Below are positions 11,064 through 52,661 of a stretch of DNA of 64,000 nucleotides, piece by piece. The notes beneath the pieces were generated by a model. It searched no databases. It was not told the DNA's origin and saw only the letters and a program-made list of their open reading frames with translations. Source of the DNA: a virus; the IMG/VR virus record IMGVR_UViG_3300037307_000721; one strand, 5' to 3'. The first letter of the stretch is position 1; each line of letters begins with the position of its first letter. The translations under genes and the position numbers were made by a program.

Positions 11064-11693
11064 ATGGCGATCGACAAGGCTCAACTGAAAATCCTGATCG
11101 CGAACGACCTGGGGGCCACGATCGAGGACCGTCTGGAAGGCGAGCGCAAGAGCCAGTACGAGCTCCAGGGCGCAGCGGTTGCCCTCAAGCAGGCGGCGCA
11201 GAAGGTCCCTCGGGACTTGATCGCAAAGCTCGAGCGCGAGCAGACCGAGGGCACGAACGTCATCAAGGACGGGCTCGAGGCGCACCACGTCATCGGGCTC
11301 ATCAAGCTCTGGCTGACCAAGGCCAGCGACTACCTCGGGCACCTGGCCGACGTGGAACAGCAGAAGGCCATCATCCAGGGCGGTCGAGCCGCGGGGCTCG
11401 AGGACGCCATGAAGATCGTGCAGCGCATGCGCGATGAAACCGTCCAGCGCGTGCAGGAGATCGCGGCGGCTGCCGATTCAGACGCGCCGCCGCCGCTCGT
11501 GGACCGCCGGTCCGAGGCGGCTGCCGCACGCGCCGAACACGGGAGCGTCGCCGAGCGTCGCGCGGCGGCGGAGGCTGGCCGGAAGAGCGAGCCGCCGGCG
11601 CAAGACATTCCCGCGCCGACGCCTCCACCTCCGGCACCCGAGCCCGCGCAGGCGCCGGCCAGGCCGAAGCGCAAGAGGAAGAAGGCAAGCTGA
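11064..11693 (+). CDS. hypothetical coiled-coil protein with Pro-rich/basic tail
   Basis: 209-aa ORF in co-directional cluster. Confidence 0.65.
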   Translation: MAIDKAQLKILIANDLGATIEDRLEGERKSQYELQGAAVALKQAAQKVPRDLIAKLEREQTEGTNVIKDGLEAHHVIGLIKLWLTKASDYLGHLADVEQQKAIIQGGRAAGLEDAMKIVQRMRDETVQRVQEIAAAADSDAPPPLVDRRSEAAAARAEHGSVAERRAAAEAGRKSEPPAQDIPAPTPPPPAPEPAQAPARPKRKRKKAS

Positions 11694-43167: not shown

Positions 43168-43238
43168 CTCCGAGACCGGGACTCGAACCCGGAATAAGCG
43201 GTTAACAGCCGCCCGTGATGCCATTTCACCATCTCGGA
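43168..43238 (-). tRNA. tRNA-Asn(GTT)
   Basis: Cloverleaf. Confidence 0.9.
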
Positions 43239-43239
43239 A

Positions 43240-43275
43240 GGAACCAGCCGCTCTACCTGACTGAGCTACGCTGGA
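43240..43275 (-). pseudogene. orphan tRNA 5' half
   Basis: TCCAGCG-TA-GCTC-AGTCAGGTA-GAGC-G-GCTGG, then directly tRNA-Asn. Confidence 0.6.
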
Positions 43276-43287
43276 ATGGAATGCTGG

Positions 43288-43488
43288 CTACTGCGTGGGA
43301 AGCGCATCGGAGGCGGCAGACGCCTCCTTGGGTGTGCTGGCCTCGACCGGAGTTGAGGCCTCCTTGACGCCGACCTCCTGCGCCACGGCGGCTTCCTGGA
43401 CCACCTTGGCGTCGACGGTTGGCGGCTTGGAATCATCGCTGCACGCGACGAAGAGCAGGGCCAATGCTAGGGCTAAGAACAGTCGCAT
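43288..43488 (-). CDS. small low-complexity lipoprotein
   Basis: LALLFVA|C lipobox. Confidence 0.65.
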   Translation of the reverse strand: MRLFLALALALLFVACSDDSKPPTVDAKVVQEAAVAQEVGVKEASTPVEASTPKEASAASDALPTQ

Positions 43489-43553
43489 GATCTTCTTCCT
43501 CCTGTGGAGTCCTTCCCACCCTACACGAGGCGAGGAAGATGGGCAACCAGGCC

Positions 43554-44177
43554 CTAGGCGATGCGAATCAACGAGGAGGGCGTGAGCTGCCAGCTCCGCT
43601 TCTTGCCCTGCTCGAGGAAGGTCTGCGCCACCTGGGCGATGAGCGCGCCGGCCATCGCGTGGAAGGGCAGGTTCTGCCCGTCCTCGCAGGTCGCCGCGCC
43701 GTCGCCGCCGGAGTCGGCGTTGAAGTCCTCGGTCCAGACCGCCCGGGCCACCGTGCCGTCGCCGGACAGGCACCCGTGCAGGCAGGGAACGATGGACTCG
43801 AGAGGCTTGCGCGGGTCGGTGTGCTGGTCTACATGGCAGCGTCCGCAGTGCAGCTGGATGAGCCTCCGCGCCTCGTAGTTGTCCGTGCAGTCGATGACGA
43901 GCGACCCGCCGAGGATGTCGAGGTTGCTCTCGAGCAGCTTGTGCGGGATCGCGTTGACCCGGCACTTGAACATCCCCGACAGGGCCTGCTGCACGGCCAG
44001 CGCCTTGTTCTTGCCCTTGCCGAGCTCGGTGTGAAACTGGCTCTGGATGTTCTTGGCCTCGACCCGATCGAAGTCGACCAGGTTGAGGCTCACGCCCGAC
44101 CAGTTCCGCGCGAAGAGCGCGACGTGGGAGCCCAAGGCGCCCATGCCGACGATGACGACTCGTCTTGGGGCTTCCAT
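43554..44177 (-). CDS. ThiF/E1-like adenylating enzyme
   Basis: VVIVGMGALGS, VDFDRVE.KN..SQ, GKNKA, VIDCTDN..AR, C-terminal TCE. Confidence 0.93.
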   Translation of the reverse strand: MEAPRRVVIVGMGALGSHVALFARNWSGVSLNLVDFDRVEAKNIQSQFHTELGKGKNKALAVQQALSGMFKCRVNAIPHKLLESNLDILGGSLVIDCTDNYEARRLIQLHCGRCHVDQHTDPRKPLESIVPCLHGCLSGDGTVARAVWTEDFNADSGGDGAATCEDGQNLPFHAMAGALIAQVAQTFLEQGKKRSWQLTPSSLIRIA

Positions 44178-44187
44178 GCTGTACCTC

Positions 44188-44793
44188 CTATCGCGAGACC
44201 ACGTGCAGCTTGCGCGGGATCTGGTCCAGCGTCGCGGCGAGAGCTGCGTTGTCCTCCTGGACCTTGCCGGGCAGGTTGCGCTTGACCTTCGCGTAGAACG
44301 GGCTCTCGAGCCACTCGGCGTACTGCATGCGACCGCGGGCCTTGTTGCACTTGCGGCAGCACGCGACGAGGTTGGCTTCGATGCTCGGGCCGCCCTCCTC
44401 CCAGAGCACCAGGTGGTCGACCGTGAGCGGGACCTTGTCGTTCCAGCAGTAACGGCAGCGGTAGCCGTCGCGCCGGTAGACGTTCCAGGAGACGCCCTGT
44501 TCGATCTGGCGCGTCGACTTCCTGATGATGACCTTGGCGAGCTTGCCGTCGCTCGCCTTGGCCAGCACCTCGGTCTCGAGGAGGTCGGTCTGCTTGACGA
44601 TCTGCTCCCAATCGCCCTGGGTCAGGTTGAGGGTGAAGAGCTTGCGCCCATCGAGATGATCATCTGGCAGCAAGCACAGGTAGAGCTTCTCCGAGTCCCC
44701 GTAGATGACGCCGGCGACCTGGATGGTGTGCCCGAACTTCTGGAGCTCGAGCGTGAGAAAATCGATCGAGAGTGGCGGGTTGTCGACAAGCAT
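44188..44793 (-). CDS. HNH nuclease with N-terminal extension
   Basis: RRDGYRCRYC...TVDH...GG....NLVACC..CN..RG. Confidence 0.88.
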   Translation of the reverse strand: MLVDNPPLSIDFLTLELQKFGHTIQVAGVIYGDSEKLYLCLLPDDHLDGRKLFTLNLTQGDWEQIVKQTDLLETEVLAKASDGKLAKVIIRKSTRQIEQGVSWNVYRRDGYRCRYCWNDKVPLTVDHLVLWEEGGPSIEANLVACCRKCNKARGRMQYAEWLESPFYAKVKRNLPGKVQEDNAALAATLDQIPRKLHVVSR

Positions 44794-44799
44794 CGCCGG

Positions 44800-45075
44800 T
44801 CACCCACCGAACTCGGTCTTCGGCCGGAGGAAGATGCGCGGGGGCAGGTCGCCCGTCGCGTCGAAGCGCTCGACGACGAAGTCCCGGAAGTTGACATTCG
44901 GGTCGGCGTCGATGCCCTGGATGTAGCCGGTTCGCACCGCCTCGGAGGCGATCGTCTTCACGTCGCCCTCGGTGGTGTCGATGCCGACCATGTCGGGGAG
45001 GTCCCCGTTCTGGCCGCGCCAGGTCACGTTGAGCCTCGCCTGGTTCCTGTTGAAGACCACGATTTCGTCTGCCAT
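44800..45075 (-). CDS. ubiquitin-like beta-grasp protein ending in -GG
   Basis: 91 aa, ends IFLRPKTEFGG; sits between JAB and E1. Confidence 0.75.
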   Translation of the reverse strand: MADEIVVFNRNQARLNVTWRGQNGDLPDMVGIDTTEGDVKTIASEAVRTGYIQGIDADPNVNFRDFVVERFDATGDLPPRIFLRPKTEFGG

Positions 45076-45096
45076 GGTTGATACCCCTTCCTTTCT

Positions 45097-45471
45097 TTAC
45101 CTCGAGAGGTCTCGTAGTTCCTCGATGCTCTCCTTCGGTATCCTGAAGCGCCGCTGCGTGAGCGGTGCGTAGTCCGTTCGTTCCGGCCCCACCCACTCGA
45201 AGTAGCCCACCTCCGAGAAGGTGACGATCGGCCAGACCAGTCTCTGACCGAGAGCCTCCTCGATCGCGGCGAAGGTCGTCACGTCGATGGAAGATGGGCT
45301 GGCAGCGCCGTGCCAAGGGTGCGTGTGCGCGACGCCACCCAGGTGCTCCCGGTTCTCCCAGAGCACCTCCCAGAGTGACCGACTGTCGGGCAGGTAGCCC
45401 TGGGAGCGATCTGCCGGCACGTGCCAGTGAATGACGCCGCCGTACTTGCTGAAGACGAGTCCAGTTTCCAT
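45097..45471 (-). CDS. JAB/MPN+ metallo-isopeptidase
   Basis: METGLV (Glu)...AHTHP...SPSSID (JAMM motif). Confidence 0.88.
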   Translation of the reverse strand: METGLVFSKYGGVIHWHVPADRSQGYLPDSRSLWEVLWENREHLGGVAHTHPWHGAASPSSIDVTTFAAIEEALGQRLVWPIVTFSEVGYFEWVGPERTDYAPLTQRRFRIPKESIEELRDLSR

Positions 45472-45886
45472 CAGAACGTGCCCTTGCTCTTGCACGAGCG
45501 CTTGCGCTTGCCGCACTCGAAGCACTCGAGCTCGACCCCGTCGCGCACCCGCTGCCGGTATTCCCAGTCGTGCCGTCCGAGCCTGCAGAGCAAACGGCGA
45601 AGGCCCGGGAGCCGATGCCAGTTGTCGACGTGTCGGAAGAAGCCGAGCGCGCCGATGAGATTCTCGATCTTCTTCATCGCTACCCCGCGTCGAACATGCG
45701 AATGAAGGCGCCGCAGTTGGTGCAGTGGATGTCGCCCTCGTGCCACATCATGGAGTAGTTGCGCATCTCCCGATGCTCCGGGTCATCGTCCCCGCACTTG
45801 GGACACGGGATGGCTGCGCGGCCATCCTTCGCTCGCACGCTCATGACGCCGCACTCAACGCCTCGCTCGTCGTACGCCGTTGGCAT
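45471..45886 (-). CDS. two small Zn-ribbon ORFs (45471-45677, 45680-45886)
   Basis: LC.LGRHDW...CFECG; CPKC...CTNC. Confidence 0.55.
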
Positions 45887-46840
45887 TCAGTCGTCCTCCC
45901 ACTCGTTTGGCTCGTCGCCTTCGACGTGCCGCCAGACCACCAGCCGGCCCTCGCGGATGGCCTGTCGGATGACGCCCGGGAGCGTCTCCAGGTTGAACTC
46001 GGTGTCGTACTTCCTGCCTGTCCGGTGGTCGGTCAGGCAGACACCCGCGTCGATGATGTTGAGCGTGCGCCGGTCGCAGGTGCACTCGAGCCGCCTGTTC
46101 TCGAACCGGTACTGCACGATCATCTCGCCGTGGTTGAAGGCCGGCCGCACCGCGATGAGCTCGGCGCCGCCAGCCCGAAGCGCGGCTGCCGCGGCCGCGC
46201 TGAAGTCCGTCTGGGCCAGCAGTCGGCGCCCATGCCCCGTGCCGATGAGCCGCAGGGCCTGCTCGCGAAGCGCCTCTTCCTGGCGCCGGCGCTCGGTCTC
46301 CGCGCGCCGACGCTCGACCTCGAGACGCTGTCGGCTCATGAAGCGAAAGGCCAGGTCCAGGGCTGGCGTCACGTCCTTGACGCGGGCGACAGAGTCCTGG
46401 CGGTCCACGAAGGCCCTCCGCACGGCCACCTCCGCCCCACCTTCGAAGAGCGGCATGGCGAAGATGGCTCGGTGTTCCTCGTCGAATGCGACCAGCACCG
46501 GGATGAAGAGGTCCAGACCGCGATCGACGAGGAACACCGGCACGGTCTGGTCCACGAGCTTGTCCGGGTCGGGGTCGACACGGGCCTTCTCGGGGATGAA
46601 GCGGTCGCCGGCGAGGTAGCCTCTCGCCGTGACCTTGTTGTCCTGGAAGTCCGCCGGCCGGTCCGCCTCGCCCTTGAGCGTGGCGACTCGGCCTGCGAGC
46701 TCGAAGAGGTACCATCCGAACTCGCGCGGGAGGGGGTTGGTTGCTCTCCAGGTACGACCGTCGCGGTGGACCTTCCGTCCGCCGAGCCACGGCAGCACCT
46801 GGCTTTCCGTGGTCGGCTGAAGAAGGTCTTGCCAGGTCAT
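45887..46840 (-). CDS. conserved hypothetical protein, candidate E2-like Cys carrier
   Basis: 317 aa; central coiled coil; C-terminal IIDAGVCL...DT.F.LE.LP motif; operon context only. Confidence 0.5.
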   Translation of the reverse strand: MTWQDLLQPTTESQVLPWLGGRKVHRDGRTWRATNPLPREFGWYLFELAGRVATLKGEADRPADFQDNKVTARGYLAGDRFIPEKARVDPDPDKLVDQTVPVFLVDRGLDLFIPVLVAFDEEHRAIFAMPLFEGGAEVAVRRAFVDRQDSVARVKDVTPALDLAFRFMSRQRLEVERRRAETERRRQEEALREQALRLIGTGHGRRLLAQTDFSAAAAAALRAGGAELIAVRPAFNHGEMIVQYRFENRRLECTCDRRTLNIIDAGVCLTDHRTGRKYDTEFNLETLPGVIRQAIREGRLVVWRHVEGDEPNEWEDD

Positions 46841-46853
46841 GCGCTGGTCTCCT

Positions 46854-48767
46854 CTATGCCCAGGCGGGCTTCTGAAGAAGAGGCGTCTTCAAGATCTGCT
46901 CGATGAGCGAGACCCGCGTCGGCACCGGAGCTGCCGGGCCGGTGACCTTGCGAACCGGCGTGGCAGTGATCAGGTTCCTCAGCGTGCGACTCACCGCGTA
47001 CGGATCGTTGAAGATCTCCTCGTCGATCGGGAAGCAGGGCACGTTGAGACGCCCCGCCGCCTGGTGGATGAGCGAGTCGGGTCTGCCCGGCGCGCCCATC
47101 GAGTCGATGTGAAGCAGGCCGAAAGCAACCGGCTCGACGCCGGACTGCTGGATGGCCCGCACCAGGTAGTCGATCCCCGGGCCGAGGCCCGAAGAGTCCT
47201 GCTCGTCGCCGACGAAGAAGAGGAGCGCGTCCTCGGTCGCCGCCGGCTTGTGCCGCTCGAGCAAGCAGCGGGCTCCCGCCGCGTAGCTCGTCCCGCCGCC
47301 CGCGTTGTGACCCCTGAAGGCCTGGGCCACACCCACCGCCGAGGGGACCTTGATCTCGACTTCGCGCCCCTCGGTGTTGAAGACGCACACGTGCAACCGG
47401 TCGAGCGGGAAGGCCGAGACGAGCCGAGCGAGACACTCCTTCGCCCGCTCGATGGCCCCTTGCATGGACCCGCTCTTGTCGACGATGACGTAGATCCGGA
47501 AGTCCTTCGCGACCTCCGCCACCGCCTTCTGCGCGGCCTGGTCGGCCGCCTGCTCGAGCTGCTCCTTGACCGCGACGTCCTTGACGTTGCGGGCGATGTT
47601 CGCCGCCCGCTGGTTCTCGGCCTTCTCCGTCGCCGCCTTCCACCGCTTGGCGATCTGCTCCACCTGGAGAAGCCCGAGCTCCTCGAGCGTCGGGGTCAGG
47701 ATGATGAGGTCAGCGTCGCTGAGCCCACCGCCCTCGATCGCCGCCGCCATGATGGCCGGCGTCAGCCCGGGGTCCGTCGGGAGCATGCCCACGATGCGCT
47801 TCCACGACAGCCTGCCCACCACGATGCGCTCGCAGATCTGCTTCTCGCTCAGGCCCTTCCAGCTCTCGGCCGCGGCGACTTCCTTGCCGATGGCCAGCCC
47901 TCGCCGCCCGTCCTTGGCCTGCACCTGCTTCCAGCGCAGGAGCTCAAAGAAGCGCTCGGCCTGCGGCTTGTAGCCCACCTTGCGAGCGAGCTGCATGACC
48001 GCCTGGCGAAAGCCCTCCTTGAGCACCTTCTCGAGCAGCTTGATGTTCGCCTCGTGATGCGCGAGCCACTTCTCCACGGCCTTGTAGTACCGGCCGGTCG
48101 GAGCGGTCCGCGCCGACTGCCCGAAGCCAAGCTTCCGGTTGATCTCGACGACCGCCGGGAGCTCGAGCACCTCGCCAACCCGGAGCAGGAGCTTCGGGTT
48201 GAACGTCCCGCCCTTCTTCCTGGACCGGATGAGGCACATGGCCTCGCCCACCGCGCGGTAGTCGTCGTCGAGCAAGGTGGCGTCGCCATCCTTGATCGGT
48301 TCCCCGTAGCGGTTCTGCACCAGGAGGAACGCGGCGAGCAGCACCTTGAGGTCCCGGTTCTCCTCGTGCTCGAAGGCGTAGGACGCCCACTTCGCGGCGA
48401 ACTCGTTGTCGATCCGCCAGACGTCGGCGATCTGCGAGTAGAGATGCGCCACGACCTCGGGGAAGAGGCCCGGCGCACGGAACTCCGCGACCACCCGACC
48501 GGCCTCGATGACCCGAGCGGAGCCCGGCTCGCCGATTCCGATGCGGGTCTTGTGCTGCTTCTTGCCGACCTTCTTGACGGTGTAGACGACCTTCTGCTCG
48601 CCCTCCTTGACCCAGGTCGCCTGCTCCCAGCGCTTGCCCCAGGGCTGACGCTGGTCGTCGAAGACGACGCCGGGCCGGTTGTGGACGGCGTGGTCGGTGA
48701 AACGGGTGATGGTCTGGATGATTCGCTCGGCGGGGCCGAGCGCCTCGAGGCGCTCTTGCGCGTTCAT
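46854..48767 (-). CDS. TROVE/Ro60-like helical protein with C-terminal vWA domain
   Basis: Long helical N-terminal region; IVDKSGSM MIDAS, GGTS, FVGDE; preceded by tRNA-like RNAs. Confidence 0.75.
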   Translation of the reverse strand: MNAQERLEALGPAERIIQTITRFTDHAVHNRPGVVFDDQRQPWGKRWEQATWVKEGEQKVVYTVKKVGKKQHKTRIGIGEPGSARVIEAGRVVAEFRAPGLFPEVVAHLYSQIADVWRIDNEFAAKWASYAFEHEENRDLKVLLAAFLLVQNRYGEPIKDGDATLLDDDYRAVGEAMCLIRSRKKGGTFNPKLLLRVGEVLELPAVVEINRKLGFGQSARTAPTGRYYKAVEKWLAHHEANIKLLEKVLKEGFRQAVMQLARKVGYKPQAERFFELLRWKQVQAKDGRRGLAIGKEVAAAESWKGLSEKQICERIVVGRLSWKRIVGMLPTDPGLTPAIMAAAIEGGGLSDADLIILTPTLEELGLLQVEQIAKRWKAATEKAENQRAANIARNVKDVAVKEQLEQAADQAAQKAVAEVAKDFRIYVIVDKSGSMQGAIERAKECLARLVSAFPLDRLHVCVFNTEGREVEIKVPSAVGVAQAFRGHNAGGGTSYAAGARCLLERHKPAATEDALLFFVGDEQDSSGLGPGIDYLVRAIQQSGVEPVAFGLLHIDSMGAPGRPDSLIHQAAGRLNVPCFPIDEEIFNDPYAVSRTLRNLITATPVRKVTGPAAPVPTRVSLIEQILKTPLLQKPAWA

Positions 48768-48862
48768 TGGACGGCCTCCTGTTAGTGAGAGCCGGCGGAC
48801 CGACCCTCGAGTTCAGGCAGATGCCTATGTAGTGGAGAAGATCAGAGCGCGCGAGTTGCTGA

Positions 48863-48960
48863 AGCGGACTTGGGTTTGTGTAGCAGGACTTGAACCTGCG
48901 ACCTCATGGGTATCAACCATGCGCTCAACCAACTGAGCTGTACACTTGTGTGCTTCCGCT
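48863..48960 (-). ncRNA. degenerate tRNA-Ile(GAT) core inside an outer stem
   Basis: D, anticodon and T arms intact; acceptor only 5 bp (GTGTA/TACAC); outer AGCGGA/TCCGCT helix. Confidence 0.55.
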
Positions 48961-48981
48961 GTTGCACGCTCGACTTCTCGG

Positions 48982-49098
48982 TGGAGGAGCAGGGAGTCGA
49001 ACCCTGGCTAACGTGTAGGCTTGGACTTGGGGAGGCCGGTCACCCGACCCCGAGTCGCCAAGCTGTGACTCGTATCCGCAACCCGTGCGGACTCCTCC
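48982..49098 (-). ncRNA. tRNA/Y-RNA-like chimera 4
   Basis: GGAGGAG/CTCCTCC acceptor; T arm CAGGG-TTCGACT-CCCTG; insert ends CCAAGC-CTACACGT. Confidence 0.65.
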
Positions 49099-49103
49099 AG
49101 TAG

Positions 49104-49248
49104 CGGGGCGCCCAGGATTCGAACCTGGATGACTTGTAGGCTGAAGCTGTTGGGCCTGAGCAGCAAGCTGCCCGCGCTCGAGACCTCCAGCGGGAGTGTG
49201 TTGTGCTGGTCCCAAAAACCAGTGCCTTTTCCGTTAGGCTAGCGCCCC
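49104..49248 (-). ncRNA. tRNA/Y-RNA-like chimera 3 (Gln-TTG core, about 77-nt variable-loop insert)
   Basis: Full cloverleaf plus insert GCTGGAG...CTTCAGC-CTACAAGTCAT. Confidence 0.75.
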
Positions 49249-49288
49249 GATGACGCTTCGTTCTCACTCCTCTTACCAACAACTGCAG

Positions 49289-49419
49289 AGCCGGGGGACG
49301 GAGTCGAACCGTCTGACTTGTAGGCTTGAGCTCGATGGGTCCGACTGCTCGGACCCGAGACGCTCAGGCTGGGATGGACTGGTTGGAAGCCAGTTGCCCT
49401 GCCGTTGGGCGTCCCCGGC
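49289..49419 (-). ncRNA. tRNA/Y-RNA-like chimera 2 (Gly-TCC core, about 65-nt insert)
   Basis: Cloverleaf, U73; insert GCCTGAGC...GCTCAAGC-CTACAAGTCA. Confidence 0.75.
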
Positions 49420-49424
49420 GATAT

Positions 49425-49586
49425 TCAATTTTTGCCCCGAGGGGCTTCTTGCTTTCCTTCCCTGGCCCGCTGAGCCGCCTTCCTGATTCGTTCGGCGTAC
49501 TCGCGAGCCCACTCCCCGAGCGTTTGTGTGCGGCCCGTCTTCGGGTCCGTCAGCAGCTTGTTCTCGGGCAGCTCGTCATCTTCCAT
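49425..49586 (-). CDS. 53-aa hypothetical protein
   Basis: MEDDELPENKLLTDPKTGRTQTLGEWAREY... Confidence 0.4.
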   Translation of the reverse strand: MEDDELPENKLLTDPKTGRTQTLGEWAREYAERIRKAAQRAREGKQEAPRGKN

Positions 49587-49590
49587 CTTC

Positions 49591-49730
49591 GGTGCCGGCG
49601 CGAGGATTCGAACCTCGATTCACTTGTAGGCTTGAGCTGTGAAGCTCTTGCGAGCTCGAGTACCCCAAGCGGGTTGTGGTTGTTCTTGGTTTAGGAGTCC
49701 AAGTGCCTTTTCCAATTCGGCCACGCCGGC
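49591..49730 (-). ncRNA. tRNA/Y-RNA-like chimera 1 (9-nt anticodon loop, about 70-nt insert)
   Basis: GCCGGCG/CGCCGGC acceptor; insert GCTTGGG...CTCAAGC-CTACAAGTG. Confidence 0.75.
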
Positions 49731-49752
49731 AGATTCCTTCTATCGAGCCCTC

Positions 49753-49781
49753 AAGCTAGCAGCTCGCTTTCAGCCTGTCAA
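49753..49781 (-). promoter_or_regulatory. sigma70-like promoter of the chimeric-RNA/TROVE/Ubl operon
   Basis: TTGACA-17-TAGCTT about 20 nt upstream of chimera 1. Confidence 0.7.
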
Positions 49782-49823
49782 CATATTTTTCGCACAATCT
49801 AGTCGAGTGAAATTAGACCGTCG

Positions 49824-49896
49824 AGCTGGCGGCGGGAATCGAACCCGCAGCCTGCTGCTTACAAGGCAGCTGCTCTGCCGATTGAGCTACGCCAGC
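49824..49896 (-). tRNA. tRNA-Thr(TGT)
   Basis: Cloverleaf. Confidence 0.93.
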
Positions 49897-50096
49897 TTCT
49901 TGTTGAGCTCGAGGACAAGACCTGTCGCATCGAGGCCGTGCTCGCTCGCGCGGAAGTACCAGTCGATGAAACTGCGCTTCGCCTCAACGACCGGCTCCTC
50001 GTACTCCCGATCAGGGCCCGGCTCGAACGCCGCCTTGGCCTTGACCAGCTTCGCGTGCGCACTGCGCAACCCCTTCAGAATTTCTCCCTGTTTCAC
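49887..50096 (-). CDS. small hypothetical protein
   Basis: GTG start with AAGGAGG RBS. Confidence 0.55.
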   Translation of the reverse strand: MKQGEILKGLRSAHAKLVKAKAAFEPGPDREYEEPVVEAKRSFIDWYFRASEHGLDATGLVLELNKKLA

Positions 50097-52510: not shown

Positions 52511-52520
52511 AAGATCGAAA

Positions 52521-52655
52521 CCGCGCCCGAGATGTCAGACCTGGATCTTGCTCGATTTTCCGTCGAGTGCCTTCCCGTTAGGCTAGCTCCCCGTAGAGTG
52601 GGGAGCCCAGGGGTCGAACCTGGATGACTTGTCGGGTCTATCTGGTTGGACGCGG
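52521..52655 (-). ncRNA. circularly permuted tRNA-like RNA (YrlA-type topology)
   Basis: Terminal stem CCGCGTCC/GGGCGCGG; order T arm, looped acceptor stem, D arm, anticodon-like arm. Confidence 0.75.
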
Positions 52656-52661
52656 AATCGG

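What the first reader, a model, noticed from the sequence alone, without database searches (positions are those of the whole stretch)
43554..49781. Phage operon coupling a Ro60-like RNP to a ubiquitin-like conjugation system
Seen, under one sigma70 promoter (49781-49753) and in this order: four tRNA-chimeric RNAs, a degenerate tRNA, TROVE-like/vWA, a 317-aa Cys protein, two Zn ribbons, JAB (E...HxH...SxxD), Ubl ending -GG, HNH, and ThiF/E1. Established: E1+Ubl+JAB form prokaryotic conjugation or sulfur-transfer systems (Bil, CBASS Cap2/3, SAMP, TtuB); Ro60/Rsr binds Y RNAs and acts in RNA quality control. Inference: an apparently undescribed phage system in which the Ubl is ligated to an RNP-selected target (host defence protein, ribosome, or the TROVE protein itself), or acts as a thiocarboxylated sulfur donor for tRNA. 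Bil-type systems are host defences, so a phage-encoded one suggests counter-defence or inter-phage exclusion.
Basis: partly seen in the sequence, partly recalled or inferred. Interest (0 to 1): 0.92.

Follow-up and report, generated by a model that had tools for sequence, protein, structure and literature searches.

The report
Ro60-like particle with ubiquitin-like module
This uncultured large phage carries a gene set, shared with other huge phages and with myxobacterial chromosomes, that joins a Ro60-type RNA-binding protein and tRNA-shaped small RNAs to a tiny ubiquitin-like protein with its activating and trimming enzymes; I found no paper describing this link between RNA surveillance and protein tagging.

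Summary
The single sigma-70 promoter is not supported.

Five protein families form a conserved module in fixed order:
- a 637-aa Ro60-like vWA protein
- an orphan 317-aa protein with one invariant Cys
- a JAB peptidase
- a 91-aa Ubl
- a minimal ThiF-type E1

All five occur in 10 of 11 huge-phage loci (11th cut before E1) and in 35 of 80 bacterial or MAG loci, including Myxococcus and Archangium isolates. The HNH gene and the two Zn-ribbon ORFs are local insertions.

A family of tRNA-shaped RNAs with a covarying extra arm flanks the module on the same strand in about 40 of 84 loci searched. It comes in normal and circularly permuted (YrlA-like) forms.

The Ubl has one invariant C-terminal Gly. 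All 12 loci lacking JAB encode a Ubl ending exactly there, so JAB is its processing peptidase.

Best reading (about 0.45): an RNP-linked Ubl thioester relay, E1 Cys164 to p317 Cys268. A sulfur-carrier role is the main rival. It is not a Bil or CBASS member, and not phage-specific.

This scan has already flagged the same module on other DNA, in at least 21 genomes. I found no publication.

The parts
49593..49730 (-). R1: tRNA-shaped RNA (138 nt) with acceptor stem, D arm, anticodon-like arm, a roughly 60-nt extra arm (H1, internal loop, H2) and a T arm
   Evidence: Rfam tRNA 47 bits with a large insertion. Fold z -3.2. Own model R1 100.7 bits, R2 93.7 bits.
49289..49419 (-). R2: tRNA-shaped RNA (131 nt), same design; anticodon-like loop CUUCCAA
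   Evidence: (z -5.0).
49104..49248 (-). R3: tRNA-shaped RNA (145 nt), same design; anticodon-like loop UUUUGGG
48982..49098 (-). R4: shorter family member (about 117 nt) with acceptor stem, one 5' hairpin, extra arm and T arm; no clear anticodon arm
   Evidence: Model R1 91 bits, R2 73 bits.
48873..48947 (-). tRNA-Ile(gat)-like gene with a shortened (5-bp) acceptor stem, directly upstream of the Ro60-like gene
   Evidence: ARAGORN. Rfam tRNA 51.7 bits with acceptor-stem gaps. Fold.
46854..48767 (-). 637-aa Ro60-like protein: helical N-terminal region plus a C-terminal vWA domain with an invariant MIDAS (D430, S432, S434, T493, D521)
   Evidence: Pfam vWA only. AF2 model, pLDDT 84.7. Foldseek top PDB hits are TROVE/Ro60 over 530-580 columns. 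BFVD hits include a Gordonia phage Ro-like protein. ESM Atlas neighbours of residues 1-420 are TROVE clusters. MIDAS conservation.
45887..46840 (-). 317-aa orphan protein (p317): tandem OB-like barrels, long coiled coil, small alpha/beta C-domain with a single invariant Cys268 in D-x-G-[IV]-C-L; candidate E2-like Ubl carrier
   Evidence: No Pfam family. AF2 model, pLDDT 90. Weak fold hits: Mpa OB domains Z 5.0, RWD Z 4.2. C268 present in 88/88 homologs.
45680..45886 (-). 68-aa CxxC...CxxC zinc-ribbon ORF; local insertion, not part of the conserved set
   Evidence: Weak Zn-ribbon/Lar matches. No homolog in the other loci.
45471..45746 (-). Second small Cys-containing ORF (likely starts at Met24, about 45677); local insertion
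   Evidence: Weak PHROG hits only. Not conserved.
45097..45525 (-). JAB/JAMM metallopeptidase; the true start is probably Met19 at 45471. Motif E20, H67-x-H69, S78-x-x-D81.
   Evidence: Prok-JAB 3e-5. Motif conserved in 77-78 homologs. Its presence correlates with Ubl C-terminal extensions.
44800..45075 (-). 91-aa ubiquitin-like protein; invariant tail R-P-K-x-x-F-G90 followed here by one extra Gly
   Evidence: G90 present in 63/63 homologs. Tails of 0 to 61 residues. Atlas structural neighbours are Ub-RnfH, PB1, ubiquitin and Multi_ubiq, TM about 0.5.
44188..44793 (-). HNH endonuclease (201 aa) inserted between Ubl and E1; a mobile element, not part of the module
   Evidence: Pfam HNH 1e-9. 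Many PHROG HNH families. Ubl and E1 are adjacent in other loci.
43554..44177 (-). Minimal ThiF-type E1 (207 aa): GxGxxG at 11-16, D96/D99/N100/R104, and a single invariant Cys164
   Evidence: Pfam ThiF 8e-18. NCBIfam ThiF/MoeB partial hits. Conservation in 60 homologs.
52511..52659 (-). Circularly permuted member of the RNA family, lying between two tRNA-Ser genes. The ends pair in H2 and the acceptor stem is closed by a 7-nt loop (YrlA-like topology).
   Evidence: Fold (z -3.0). Model R3 105.6 bits. The Rfam YrlA model does not match it.
49753..49781 (-). Promoter-like site: TTGACA, 17 nt, TAGCTT. Weak -10; unverified.
   Evidence: Sequence. Not reported by the consensus scan.

Best explanation
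The region encodes a conserved ribonucleoprotein-linked ubiquitin-like (Ubl) system of five proteins plus tRNA-shaped small RNAs.

Shown here by computation:
- the co-conservation of the parts;
- the catalytic motifs;
- the invariant Ubl C-terminal Gly90;
- the RNA structure.

Inferred mechanism:
1. The RNAs are released from the tRNA-array transcript by tRNA-processing enzymes. Their extra arm (helix H1, conserved internal loop with CUCGG, helix H2) is held by the Ro60-like ring, as Y RNAs are held by Ro60.
2. The JAB peptidase trims the Ubl precursor to expose Gly90.
3. The minimal E1 adenylates Gly90 and takes it as a thioester on Cys164.
4. The Ubl passes to Cys268 of the 317-aa protein, which acts as a non-canonical E2-like carrier. 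Its OB-like domains and coiled coil dock it on the RNA or the ring.
5. The Ubl is finally attached to a lysine of a protein held by the particle: either a subunit of the particle itself or a protein bound to its RNA clients.

In phages the module rides inside the tRNA array. In myxobacteria it is an ordinary chromosomal operon. Its basic job is therefore more likely RNA or tRNA metabolism or surveillance than a phage-only weapon.
For: Co-conservation.
- The order vWA637, p317, JAB, Ubl, E1 holds in all 11 IMG/VR loci (E1 lies beyond the flank in one) and in Virus Rctr197k.
- These are the only families shared by the loci.
- All five are found in 35 of 80 genome loci, including isolates.

Ro60-like protein.
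- Foldseek's best PDB hits are the TROVE domain 9kop (E 9e-8), Thermus phage Ro60 9l5y, and 9nfa, 1yvp and 2nvo, over 530-580 columns. These rank ahead of the vWA-only hits.
- BFVD gives the same picture.
- The ESM Atlas neighbours of residues 1-420 are TROVE/DUF2828 clusters.
- The MIDAS is invariant.

Ubl, JAB and E1.
- G90 is present in 63/63 homologs.
- All 12 of 12 JAB-less loci encode a Ubl ending at G90, whereas 44 of 51 JAB-containing loci carry extensions (Fisher p 2e-8).
- The JAMM motif is intact.
- The E1 adenylation motifs and a single invariant Cys164 are conserved.

p317. There is a single invariant Cys268 in G-[IV]-C-L, which resembles the UBC active-site signature (my own knowledge). 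It follows a four-strand meander and precedes a helix.

RNAs.
- 23 of 27 pairs show compensatory changes; 89.5% of cells are paired against 64.6% in shuffles.
- Family members lie on the module's strand within about 0.1-1.5 kb in most cases, in phage, MAG and Myxococcus/Corallococcus loci.
Against: - No experiment of any kind supports the mechanism.
- The Pfam TROVE model and a PDB sequence profile do not see Ro60. TM-scores to Ro60 are only 0.2-0.3, and the Atlas score of 0.79 is lead-level.
- No E2/UBC fold or family was recovered for p317. The best fold matches have Z of 5 or less, and there is no Pfam or PDB profile hit.
- E1 + Ubl + JAB without a recognisable E2 is also the make-up of sulfur-carrier systems.
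- The Ubl has one conserved Gly, not GG.
- RNAs were not detected near the module in about half of the loci, including Archangium isolates and five phage loci.
- The JAB/tail correlation is not corrected for phylogeny; the 12 JAB-less loci may be a single clade.
- The target of the Ubl is unknown.
Confidence: 0.45

Rival explanations
1. Sulfur-relay reading. The Ubl is thiocarboxylated by the ThiF-type E1 and donates sulfur for thiolation of the tRNA-like RNAs or of the phage's tRNAs. p317 would act as an RNA-binding persulfide/sulfur transferase through Cys268, and the Ro60-like ring would present the RNA.
For: - The E1 is closest to ThiF/MoeB-type adenylyltransferases.
- No recognisable E2 was found.
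- In phages the module lies inside tRNA arrays.
- p317 has OB-like domains, and one invariant Cys is compatible with a persulfide carrier.
- JAB-processed sulfur carriers are known, for example CysO/Mec+ and QbsE/QbsD (Iyer et al. 2006, PMC1779556).
- Ubl sulfur carriers serve tRNA thiolation in Urm1/Uba4 and TtuB/TtuC (papers listed).
Against: - None of the conserved genes is a PP-loop ATPase (TtuA/Ncs6/MnmA/ThiI type), a rhodanese or a cysteine desulfurase. Only five families are shared.
- The Ubl lacks the GG end typical of ThiS/MoaD/Urm1/TtuB; it has one invariant Gly after Phe.
- The myxobacterial copies have no tRNA array nearby.
- The motif around Cys268 looks like an E2 signature, not a rhodanese or TusA loop (the motif comparison rests on my own knowledge).
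Confidence: 0.17
2. Phage counter-defence reading. The tRNA-shaped RNAs act as decoys that attract host tRNA-directed defence proteins. The Ro60-like particle holds these proteins and the Ubl cascade tags or inactivates them, or the system excludes rival phages.
For: - The module is very common in huge phages and sits in their tRNA arrays.
- tRNA mimicry is extensive, and several RNA copies occur per locus.
- Bacterial Ubl systems such as Bil and CBASS Cap2 act in the phage-host conflict (papers listed).
Against: - The same module with the same RNA occurs in chromosomes of cultured Myxococcota and of an actinomycete. In Archangium gephyra its neighbours are ordinary genes: a histidine kinase, a GH31 glycosidase and DUF1684.
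- No PADLOC defence family matches apart from the generic ThiF domain.
- Nothing in the sequence identifies a host target.
Confidence: 0.12
3. Two neighbouring but independent systems: a Ro60-like protein with its Y-like RNAs, and a separate small Ubl system. They travel together without working on each other.
For: - In Archangium the Ubl-E1 pair lies about 7 kb from vWA-p317-JAB, with unrelated genes between.
- In 25 loci Ubl and E1 were not found within 9 kb.
- Two loci (L063, L093) have p317 and JAB without a detectable vWA gene.
Against: - JAB, the Ubl-processing enzyme, stays with vWA and p317 even when Ubl-E1 is displaced. This ties the two halves together.
- The order is fixed across proteins that are only 27-60% identical, in both phages and bacteria.
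- No other family is shared.
Confidence: 0.1

Closest known systems
Bacterial and phage Ro60 (Rsr) with Y RNAs: Salmonella/M. smegmatis YrlA (Rfam RF02553; Chen et al. 2014, PMC4201824), Deinococcus Rsr-Y RNA-PNPase, Thermus phage phiLo Ro60 (PMC12135203; PDB 9l5y)
   Same: - A helical region plus a vWA domain with MIDAS; the best fold matches are Ro60 proteins.
- Small RNAs on the same strand, close to the gene, that combine a terminal stem with a tRNA-like domain.
- The permuted members have the YrlA order (T arm, closed acceptor stem, D arm).
- Many loop sequences encode ACCA. [quoted passage not shown]
   Different: - The Pfam TROVE model does not match.
- The protein is about 100 residues longer, with a beta-rich insert at residues 33-97.
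- The Rfam YrlA model does not match the RNAs.
- The conserved RNA motifs are CUCGG and C(U)ACA(A/C)G, not GNCGAAG.
- Many phage copies have normal tRNA topology, with the handle in the variable-arm position.
- No known Ro60 locus carries a Ubl, E1 and JAB; none is mentioned in PMC4201824 or PMC12135203.
E2-less prokaryotic Ubl systems: archaeal SAMP/UbaA/HvJAMM1 and Thermus TtuB/TtuC with a JAMM peptidase
   Same: - A small beta-grasp-like protein with a C-terminal Gly.
- A ThiF/MoeB-type E1 with one catalytic Cys.
- A JAMM peptidase.
- No canonical E2 or E3.
- A link to tRNA biology.
   Different: - The Ubl ends -FG, not -GG, and belongs to an unannotated family.
- The E1 has only about 200 residues and no rhodanese domain.
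- An extra Cys protein (p317) and a Ro60-like protein are obligatory partners.
- No TtuA/Ncs6-type thiolase is linked.
Bacterial Ubl-conjugation defence operons: Bil (BilABCD) and CBASS type II Cap2/Cap3
   Same: - Ubl or Ubl-like C-terminal activation by an E1.
- A JAB/JAMM peptidase.
- A thioester relay is plausible.
- PADLOC E1-E2 (Cap2) models match the ThiF domain weakly (E about 3e-9).
   Different: - No UBC-type E2 is recognisable and there is no E1-E2 fusion.
- There is no CD-NTase or effector.
- No Bil model hit.
- The genomic context is tRNA arrays or ordinary chromosomal genes, not a defence island.
Phage lambda/T1 tail-assembly Ubl (TAPI) with JAB-containing TAPK (Iyer et al. 2006, PMC1779556)
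   Same: A phage-borne Ubl with a conserved C-terminal Gly next to a JAB peptidase predicted to cleave after that Gly.
   Different: - That system has no E1, whereas here an E1 is always present.
- This module is not in a tail gene cluster. The only PHROG 'tail' match of the JAB is weak (E 0.007).
Circularly permuted tRNA-like genes (two-piece tmRNA; permuted tRNA genes of red algae)
   Same: The 3' half (T arm, acceptor 3' strand, often ACCA) precedes the 5' half in one gene.
   Different: - There is no mRNA-like tag region, and the tmRNA models do not match.
- The ends pair in a conserved 'handle' stem that tmRNA and permuted tRNAs lack.

Membership tests
Ro60/Rsr (TROVE + vWA) | TROVE HEAT-repeat ring recognisable by sequence (Pfam PF05731) | tested here: not met
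   No PF05731 hit at E up to 0.1 for the protein. None at E up to 1 in the whole 82-kb record or in five related phage records. The control genomes Deinococcus and Bacteroides did match. A profile of 73 homologs finds only vWA chains in the PDB.
Ro60/Rsr (TROVE + vWA) | Ro60-type fold: helical ring closed by a vWA domain | tested here: inconclusive
   Foldseek's best PDB and BFVD hits are Ro60/TROVE proteins aligned over 530-616 columns (E 9e-8 to 1e-4). However, TM is 0.2-0.3 and rmsd 16-20 A. The VIA second look lists only vWA domains. Atlas neighbours of residues 1-420 are TROVE clusters at 0.79, which is lead level.
Ro60/Rsr (TROVE + vWA) | C-terminal vWA domain with a MIDAS motif | tested here: met
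   vWA Z 16, rmsd 3.1 A over 163 residues. D430, S432, S434, T493 and D521 are invariant in 79-81 homologs.
Ro60/Rsr (TROVE + vWA) | Binds Y RNA and misfolded RNA | not testable with these tools
   Only co-location of the RNAs is shown.
YrlA Y RNA (Rfam RF02553) | Match to the Rfam covariance model | tested here: not met
   The only YrlA row is 15.9 bits (gathering score 69), and it lies on a true tRNA. The permuted RNA gives no hit at E up to 10.
YrlA Y RNA (Rfam RF02553) | Terminal stem plus tRNA-like domain in the order T arm, closed acceptor-like stem, D arm; encoded near and on the strand of the Ro60 gene | tested here: met
   This holds for the permuted form: window 52511-52659 and 20 further loci. 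The four RNAs inside the finding have normal tRNA order instead.
YrlA Y RNA (Rfam RF02553) | GNCGAA(N)G motif in the 5' strand of the Ro60-binding stem (PMC4201824) | tested here: inconclusive
   The conserved columns of alignments A5, A7 and A9 show CUCGG and C(U)ACA(A/C)G instead. I made no systematic search for the motif.
Bil (BilABCD) / CBASS Cap2-Cap3 | UBC-type E2, free or fused to the E1 | tested here: not met
   No E2 family appears in Pfam, NCBIfam or PADLOC for any of the eight proteins. The E1 has 207 aa with the ThiF domain only. p317 gives no E2 fold or profile hit.
Bil (BilABCD) / CBASS Cap2-Cap3 | E1 adenylation domain, Ubl-type C-terminal Gly, JAB peptidase | tested here: met
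ThiS/MoaD-type sulfur carriers with ThiF/MoeB | Carrier ends in Gly-Gly | tested here: not met
   The invariant end is F89-G90. The next residue is absent or variable: A, G, S, V, M and others.
ThiS/MoaD-type sulfur carriers with ThiF/MoeB | Linked sulfur donor or acceptor enzyme (rhodanese, desulfurase, PP-loop thiolase, ThiG/MoaE) | tested here: not met
   Only five protein families are shared among the loci, and none is of these kinds. Enzymes encoded elsewhere were not searched for.
E2-less Ubl conjugation (SAMP/UbaA/JAMM type) | ThiF-type E1 with a catalytic Cys, beta-grasp Ubl with a C-terminal Gly, JAMM peptidase, no canonical E2 | tested here: met
   E1 Cys164 is present in 60/60 homologs. 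The Ubl's neighbours are beta-grasp families at TM about 0.5. The JAMM motif is intact. Whether conjugates actually form cannot be tested here.

The most novel reading that the evidence does not exclude
An RNA-particle-guided protein-tagging system. A Ro60-like ring and its tRNA-shaped RNAs would choose what a minimal E1 / E2-like / Ubl cascade modifies. This would be the first direct coupling of non-coding-RNA surveillance to ubiquitin-like tagging outside eukaryotes, and it is shared by huge phages and bacteria.

A bolder sub-variant, which the evidence does not exclude, is that the activated Ubl C-terminus is esterified to the CCA end of the tRNA-like RNA, in the manner of aminoacylation. 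Supporting this, many permuted copies encode ACCA in the acceptor loop. Against it, the window's permuted copy has a closed acceptor stem without CCA.
Probability: 0.35. Interest if true: 0.9.

Novelty: new variant of a known kind. Interest (0 to 1): 0.8.

Why it matters
- The role of Ro60's MIDAS site is called unclear in the Thermus phage study (PMC12135203). What bacterial Y RNAs tether Ro60 to is likewise still open. A Ro60-like family that always travels with a Ubl, an E1, a JAB and a cysteine protein gives a concrete, testable partner set.
- The module adds a widespread Ubl system with two unannotated protein families and a new RNA class. More than 2,100 homologs of the ring protein were scored.
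- It occurs in cultivable Myxococcus, Corallococcus and Archangium strains, so genetics is possible without the uncultured phage.
- For phage biology, it may explain a recurrent non-tRNA cargo of huge-phage tRNA arrays.

Tried and rejected
- **Pfam TROVE.** The model was run on the protein, the whole record and five related phage records: no hit.
- **PDB sequence profiles.** The profile of the ring protein gave vWA chains only. The Ubl profile gave nothing. The p317 C-domain profile gave only a chance-level PRORP hit.
- **PADLOC.** Nothing matched apart from generic HNH and ThiF hits.
- **p317 as a zinc-binding protein.** C253, H272 and H305 looked like a zinc site in the phage-only alignment. 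They are not conserved in the bacterial homologs, so I dropped this reading.
- **The acidic tail of p317 as a MIDAS ligand.** The tail occurs in only some of the phage-type sequences. I dropped this as a general feature.
- **p317 as an E2.** The E2 fold for p317 was not recovered by Foldseek or by the wide VIA search.
- **VIA second look at the ring protein.** vWA domains filled the list, so it says nothing about the N-terminal region.
- **Obtaining a canonical Ro60 sequence for a profile-profile test.** This failed. No supplements were held, relatives cannot be drawn for a virus record, and tblastn of the vWA part found no annotated Ro protein.
- **Rfam YrlA.** The model does not match the RNAs.
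- **One paper search failed** on a term that was too short.

Full report
**Setting.** The window lies in an 82-kb IMG/VR virus record estimated at 55% complete. It carries 47 tRNA genes, all on the minus strand. The finding sits inside this tRNA array.

**What is in the region.** Eight ORFs lie head to tail on the minus strand, with gaps of -67 to +21 nt:

| ORF | Coordinates |
|---|---|
| 637-aa vWA protein | 46854-48767 |
| 317-aa protein (p317) | 45887-46840 |
| Cys-rich ORF 1 | 45680-45886 |
| Cys-rich ORF 2 | 45471-45746 |
| JAB peptidase | 45097-45525 |
| 91-aa Ubl ending FGG | 44800-45075 |
| HNH endonuclease | 44188-44793 |
| 207-aa ThiF-type E1 | 43554-44177 |

- Library matches are ThiF 8e-18, HNH 1e-9, and vWA and Prok-JAB just under their cut-offs. 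p317 and the Ubl match nothing.
- Upstream lie four tRNA-like RNAs, R1-R4, between 49730 and 48982. Then comes a tRNA-Ile(gat)-like gene with a short acceptor stem.
- The proposed promoter has a perfect -35 but a 3-of-6 -10. It is not found by the consensus scan, which reports no promoter in 43200-50000. Terminator-like sites occur at the shuffle expectation.
- So co-transcription is plausible from the packing, but a single dedicated promoter is not shown.

**Which parts belong together.**
- tblastn of the eight proteins against 11 related huge-phage loci (contigs up to 416 kb, one complete at 398 kb) finds vWA637, p317, JAB, Ubl and E1 in that order in every locus. In one locus E1 lies beyond the fetched flank.
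- All-against-all clustering of the ORFs shows these are the only families shared by the loci.
- HNH and the Zn-ribbon ORFs have no counterparts, so they are local insertions.
- The only GenBank phage with the module is Virus Rctr197k. There the ring protein follows 35 tRNA genes and is annotated only as 'similar to conserved hypothetical protein'.

**The module is not phage-only.**
- A scan of one genome per prokaryotic species with the p317 alignment returned 80 loci. Most are Myxococcota MAGs. Isolates are also present: the complete chromosome of Archangium gephyra, A. violaceum, A. lansingense, two Myxococcus species, Corallococcus terminator, Hyalangium versicolor and the actinomycete Virgisporangium ochraceum.
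- HMMs of the five families find all five in 35 loci. They find vWA-p317-JAB in 25 more. In Archangium, Ubl-E1 lies about 7 kb further on.
- In A. gephyra the neighbours are a hybrid histidine kinase, a GH31 glycosidase and a DUF1684 protein, which is ordinary chromosomal context.

**The 637-aa protein.**
- The ring protein has more than 2,100 homologs at E up to 0.001. These are nearly all 620-650 aa long and unnamed.
- An AlphaFold model built from 73 homologs has pLDDT 84.7 and pTM 0.54. It shows a helical region (103-363), two long helices, and a vWA domain at 423-602.
- Foldseek's best PDB hits are TROVE/Ro60 structures aligned over 530-580 columns: 9kop at E 9e-8, Thermus phage phiLo Ro60 (9l5y), human Ro60 complexes, Xenopus Ro (1yvp) and Deinococcus Rsr (2nvo). 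These rank ahead of the vWA-only hits, but TM is only 0.2-0.3.
- The viral library gives the same kind of hits, including a Gordonia phage 'Ro-like RNA binding protein' and DUF2828/TROVE proteins.
- The ESM Atlas feature search with residues 1-420 alone returns TROVE and DUF2828 clusters, at a lead-level score of 0.79.
- Sequence models do not see TROVE.
- The MIDAS residues are invariant in about 80 homologs from phages and bacteria.
- My reading: a very divergent Ro60-type protein. This is probable but not proven.

**Ubl, JAB and E1.**
- *Ubl.* The Atlas model of the Ubl has pTM 0.75. Outside its own family, its neighbours include Ub-RnfH, PB1, ubiquitin and Multi_ubiq. All are beta-grasp families, at TM about 0.5.
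- Across 63 homologs the tail R-P-K-x-x-F-G is conserved and G90 is invariant. What follows ranges from nothing to 61 residues.
- *JAB.* All 12 loci that truly lack a JAB gene encode a Ubl that stops exactly at G90. By contrast, 44 of 51 loci with JAB carry at least one extra residue (Fisher p 2e-8).
- This test is not corrected for phylogeny, and the JAB-less loci may be a single clade.
- It still argues that G90 is the mature end, that JAB is the processing peptidase, and that deconjugation is dispensable.
- JAB keeps the full JAMM motif, with the Glu at the second to fifth residue of the real protein.
- *E1.* The E1 keeps the nucleotide-binding and Mg/ATP motifs of ThiF/MoeB. It has one invariant Cys (C164), 65 residues after D99, where E1 catalytic cysteines lie. 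Its other cysteines are not conserved.

**p317.**
- The model has pLDDT 90. It shows two OB-like barrels (10-140), a 40-residue helix, and a small alpha/beta domain made of four strands, a loop and a helix.
- Fold searches give only weak matches: the Mpa tandem OB domains (Z 5.0, rmsd 4.5 A, 109 residues) and an RWD domain for the C-domain (Z 4.2).
- No Pfam family or PDB profile matches.
- Including the bacterial homologs at 27-36% identity, only one Cys survives: C268, in 88 of 88 sequences, within D264-x-G266-[IV]-C268-L269 and followed by D279 and L-E-S-L-P.
- From my own knowledge, G-x-[IV]-C-L is the UBC active-site signature. So an E2-like carrier is the most economical reading, but membership is not established.

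**The RNAs.**
- R1-R4 share a tRNA frame: a 7-bp acceptor stem, D arm, T arm and usually an anticodon-like arm. In the variable-arm position they carry an insert of helix H1, an internal loop with CUCGG, hairpin H2, and C(U)ACA(A/C)G before the T arm.
- A covariance model built from seven copies, then one from 16, finds full-length members on the module's strand. They lie just upstream of the ring gene or just downstream of E1, in many phage and MAG loci.
- On the 16-sequence alignment, 23 of 27 pairs show compensatory changes, including 7 of 7 in H1 and 5 of 6 in H2. Pairing is 89.5%, against 64.6% in shuffles and 55% or less when the partner is slid. The alignment was fitted to the model, which favours it.
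- At 52511-52659, between two tRNA-Ser genes, lies a circularly permuted copy. Its ends form H2 and its acceptor stem is closed by a 7-nt loop.
- A simple structural scan, followed by a third model built from 21 such copies, finds permuted members in many further loci. These include Myxococcus, Corallococcus and Hyalangium isolates, 60-400 nt upstream of the ring gene (or of p317 in Hyalangium), all on the module's strand.
- Many acceptor loops read ACCA. [quoted passage not shown]
- The Rfam YrlA model does not match any of these RNAs.
- About 40 of 84 sources searched have at least one detected family member. Archangium, Virgisporangium and five phage loci have none at my thresholds.

**Mechanism.**
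- Shown here: the parts list, its conservation, the catalytic motifs, the mature Ubl end and the RNA structure.
- Inferred: the relay given under Best explanation, with the Ro60-like ring and its RNAs supplying the context or the target.
- The main rival is a sulfur-carrier role, which shares the E1/Ubl/JAB core. It lacks a linked thiolase or sulfur donor, and the Ubl has no GG end.
- The counter-defence reading is weakened by the chromosomal myxobacterial copies.

**Comparison with known systems, and novelty.**
- The module works most like two known things joined together: Rsr/Ro60 with YrlA-type RNAs, and small E1/Ubl/JAMM systems of the SAMP or TtuB type.
- It fails the sequence definitions of TROVE and YrlA, and the E2 requirement of Bil and CBASS.
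- Full-text searches for this combination found nothing. The Thermus phage Ro60 paper does not mention ubiquitin-like genes.
- Earlier notes of this scan describe the same module in at least 21 other genomes. I used them as leads and re-tested the main points here.

**Limits.**
- There is no expression or biochemical evidence.
- The fold assignments for the ring's N-terminal region and for the p317 C-domain remain open.

Noticed in passing
window 52511-52659 (-): A circularly permuted copy of the tRNA-shaped RNA lies between tRNA-Ser(gct) and tRNA-Ser(gga). Processing of the two flanking tRNAs would release it with paired ends. L022 has the same arrangement between two tRNA-Ser genes (11243-11389).
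   Followed up: yes
window 40923 (-); L006:5515-5535 (+): The motif GCCUACAAGU / GUCUACAAGC, which precedes the T arm in the RNA family, also lies about 10 nt upstream of ordinary tRNA genes: tRNA-Arg(acg) in the window and tRNA-His(atg) in L006. It may be a shared processing or recognition signal.
   Followed up: no
L016, L021, L022, L024, L026, L028, L029, L032-L035, L039: A group of Myxococcota-type MAG loci has lost the JAB gene. All of them encode the Ubl in mature form, with the stop codon right after the invariant Gly.
   Followed up: yes
L063 (Hyalangium versicolor), L093: p317 and JAB are present with a permuted RNA upstream, but no ring (vWA637) gene was detected in the 9 kb upstream. 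Either the gene was lost or it is broken.
   Followed up: no
L064, L065, L071, L090 (Archangium isolates): The module is split. vWA-p317-JAB is separated from an overlapping Ubl-E1 pair by 5-7 kb. In A. gephyra this stretch holds a GH31 glycosidase on the opposite strand and a DUF1684 gene. No family RNA was detected here.
   Followed up: partly
L007:13239-13562, L010:13157-13540: In two phage loci the Ubl reading frame continues past the invariant Gly into a short CxxC-containing tail. In the window, separate small CxxC ORFs lie elsewhere in the module.
   Followed up: no
window 44188-44793 (-): The inserted HNH protein matches the HNH region of the IscB and Cas9d models (NCBIfam 7e-13 and 5e-6). 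It has only that domain and looks like a free-standing homing endonuclease.
   Followed up: no
L006:5533-5607, L014:12873-12947: ARAGORN calls tRNA-His genes with the unusual anticodon ATG next to the module in two related loci.
   Followed up: no
L072:5976-6104, L073:5993-6123, L089:6001-6131: Myxococcus and Corallococcus isolates carry a second, weaker match to the permuted RNA model (52-58 bits), about 1 kb upstream of the first.
   Followed up: no
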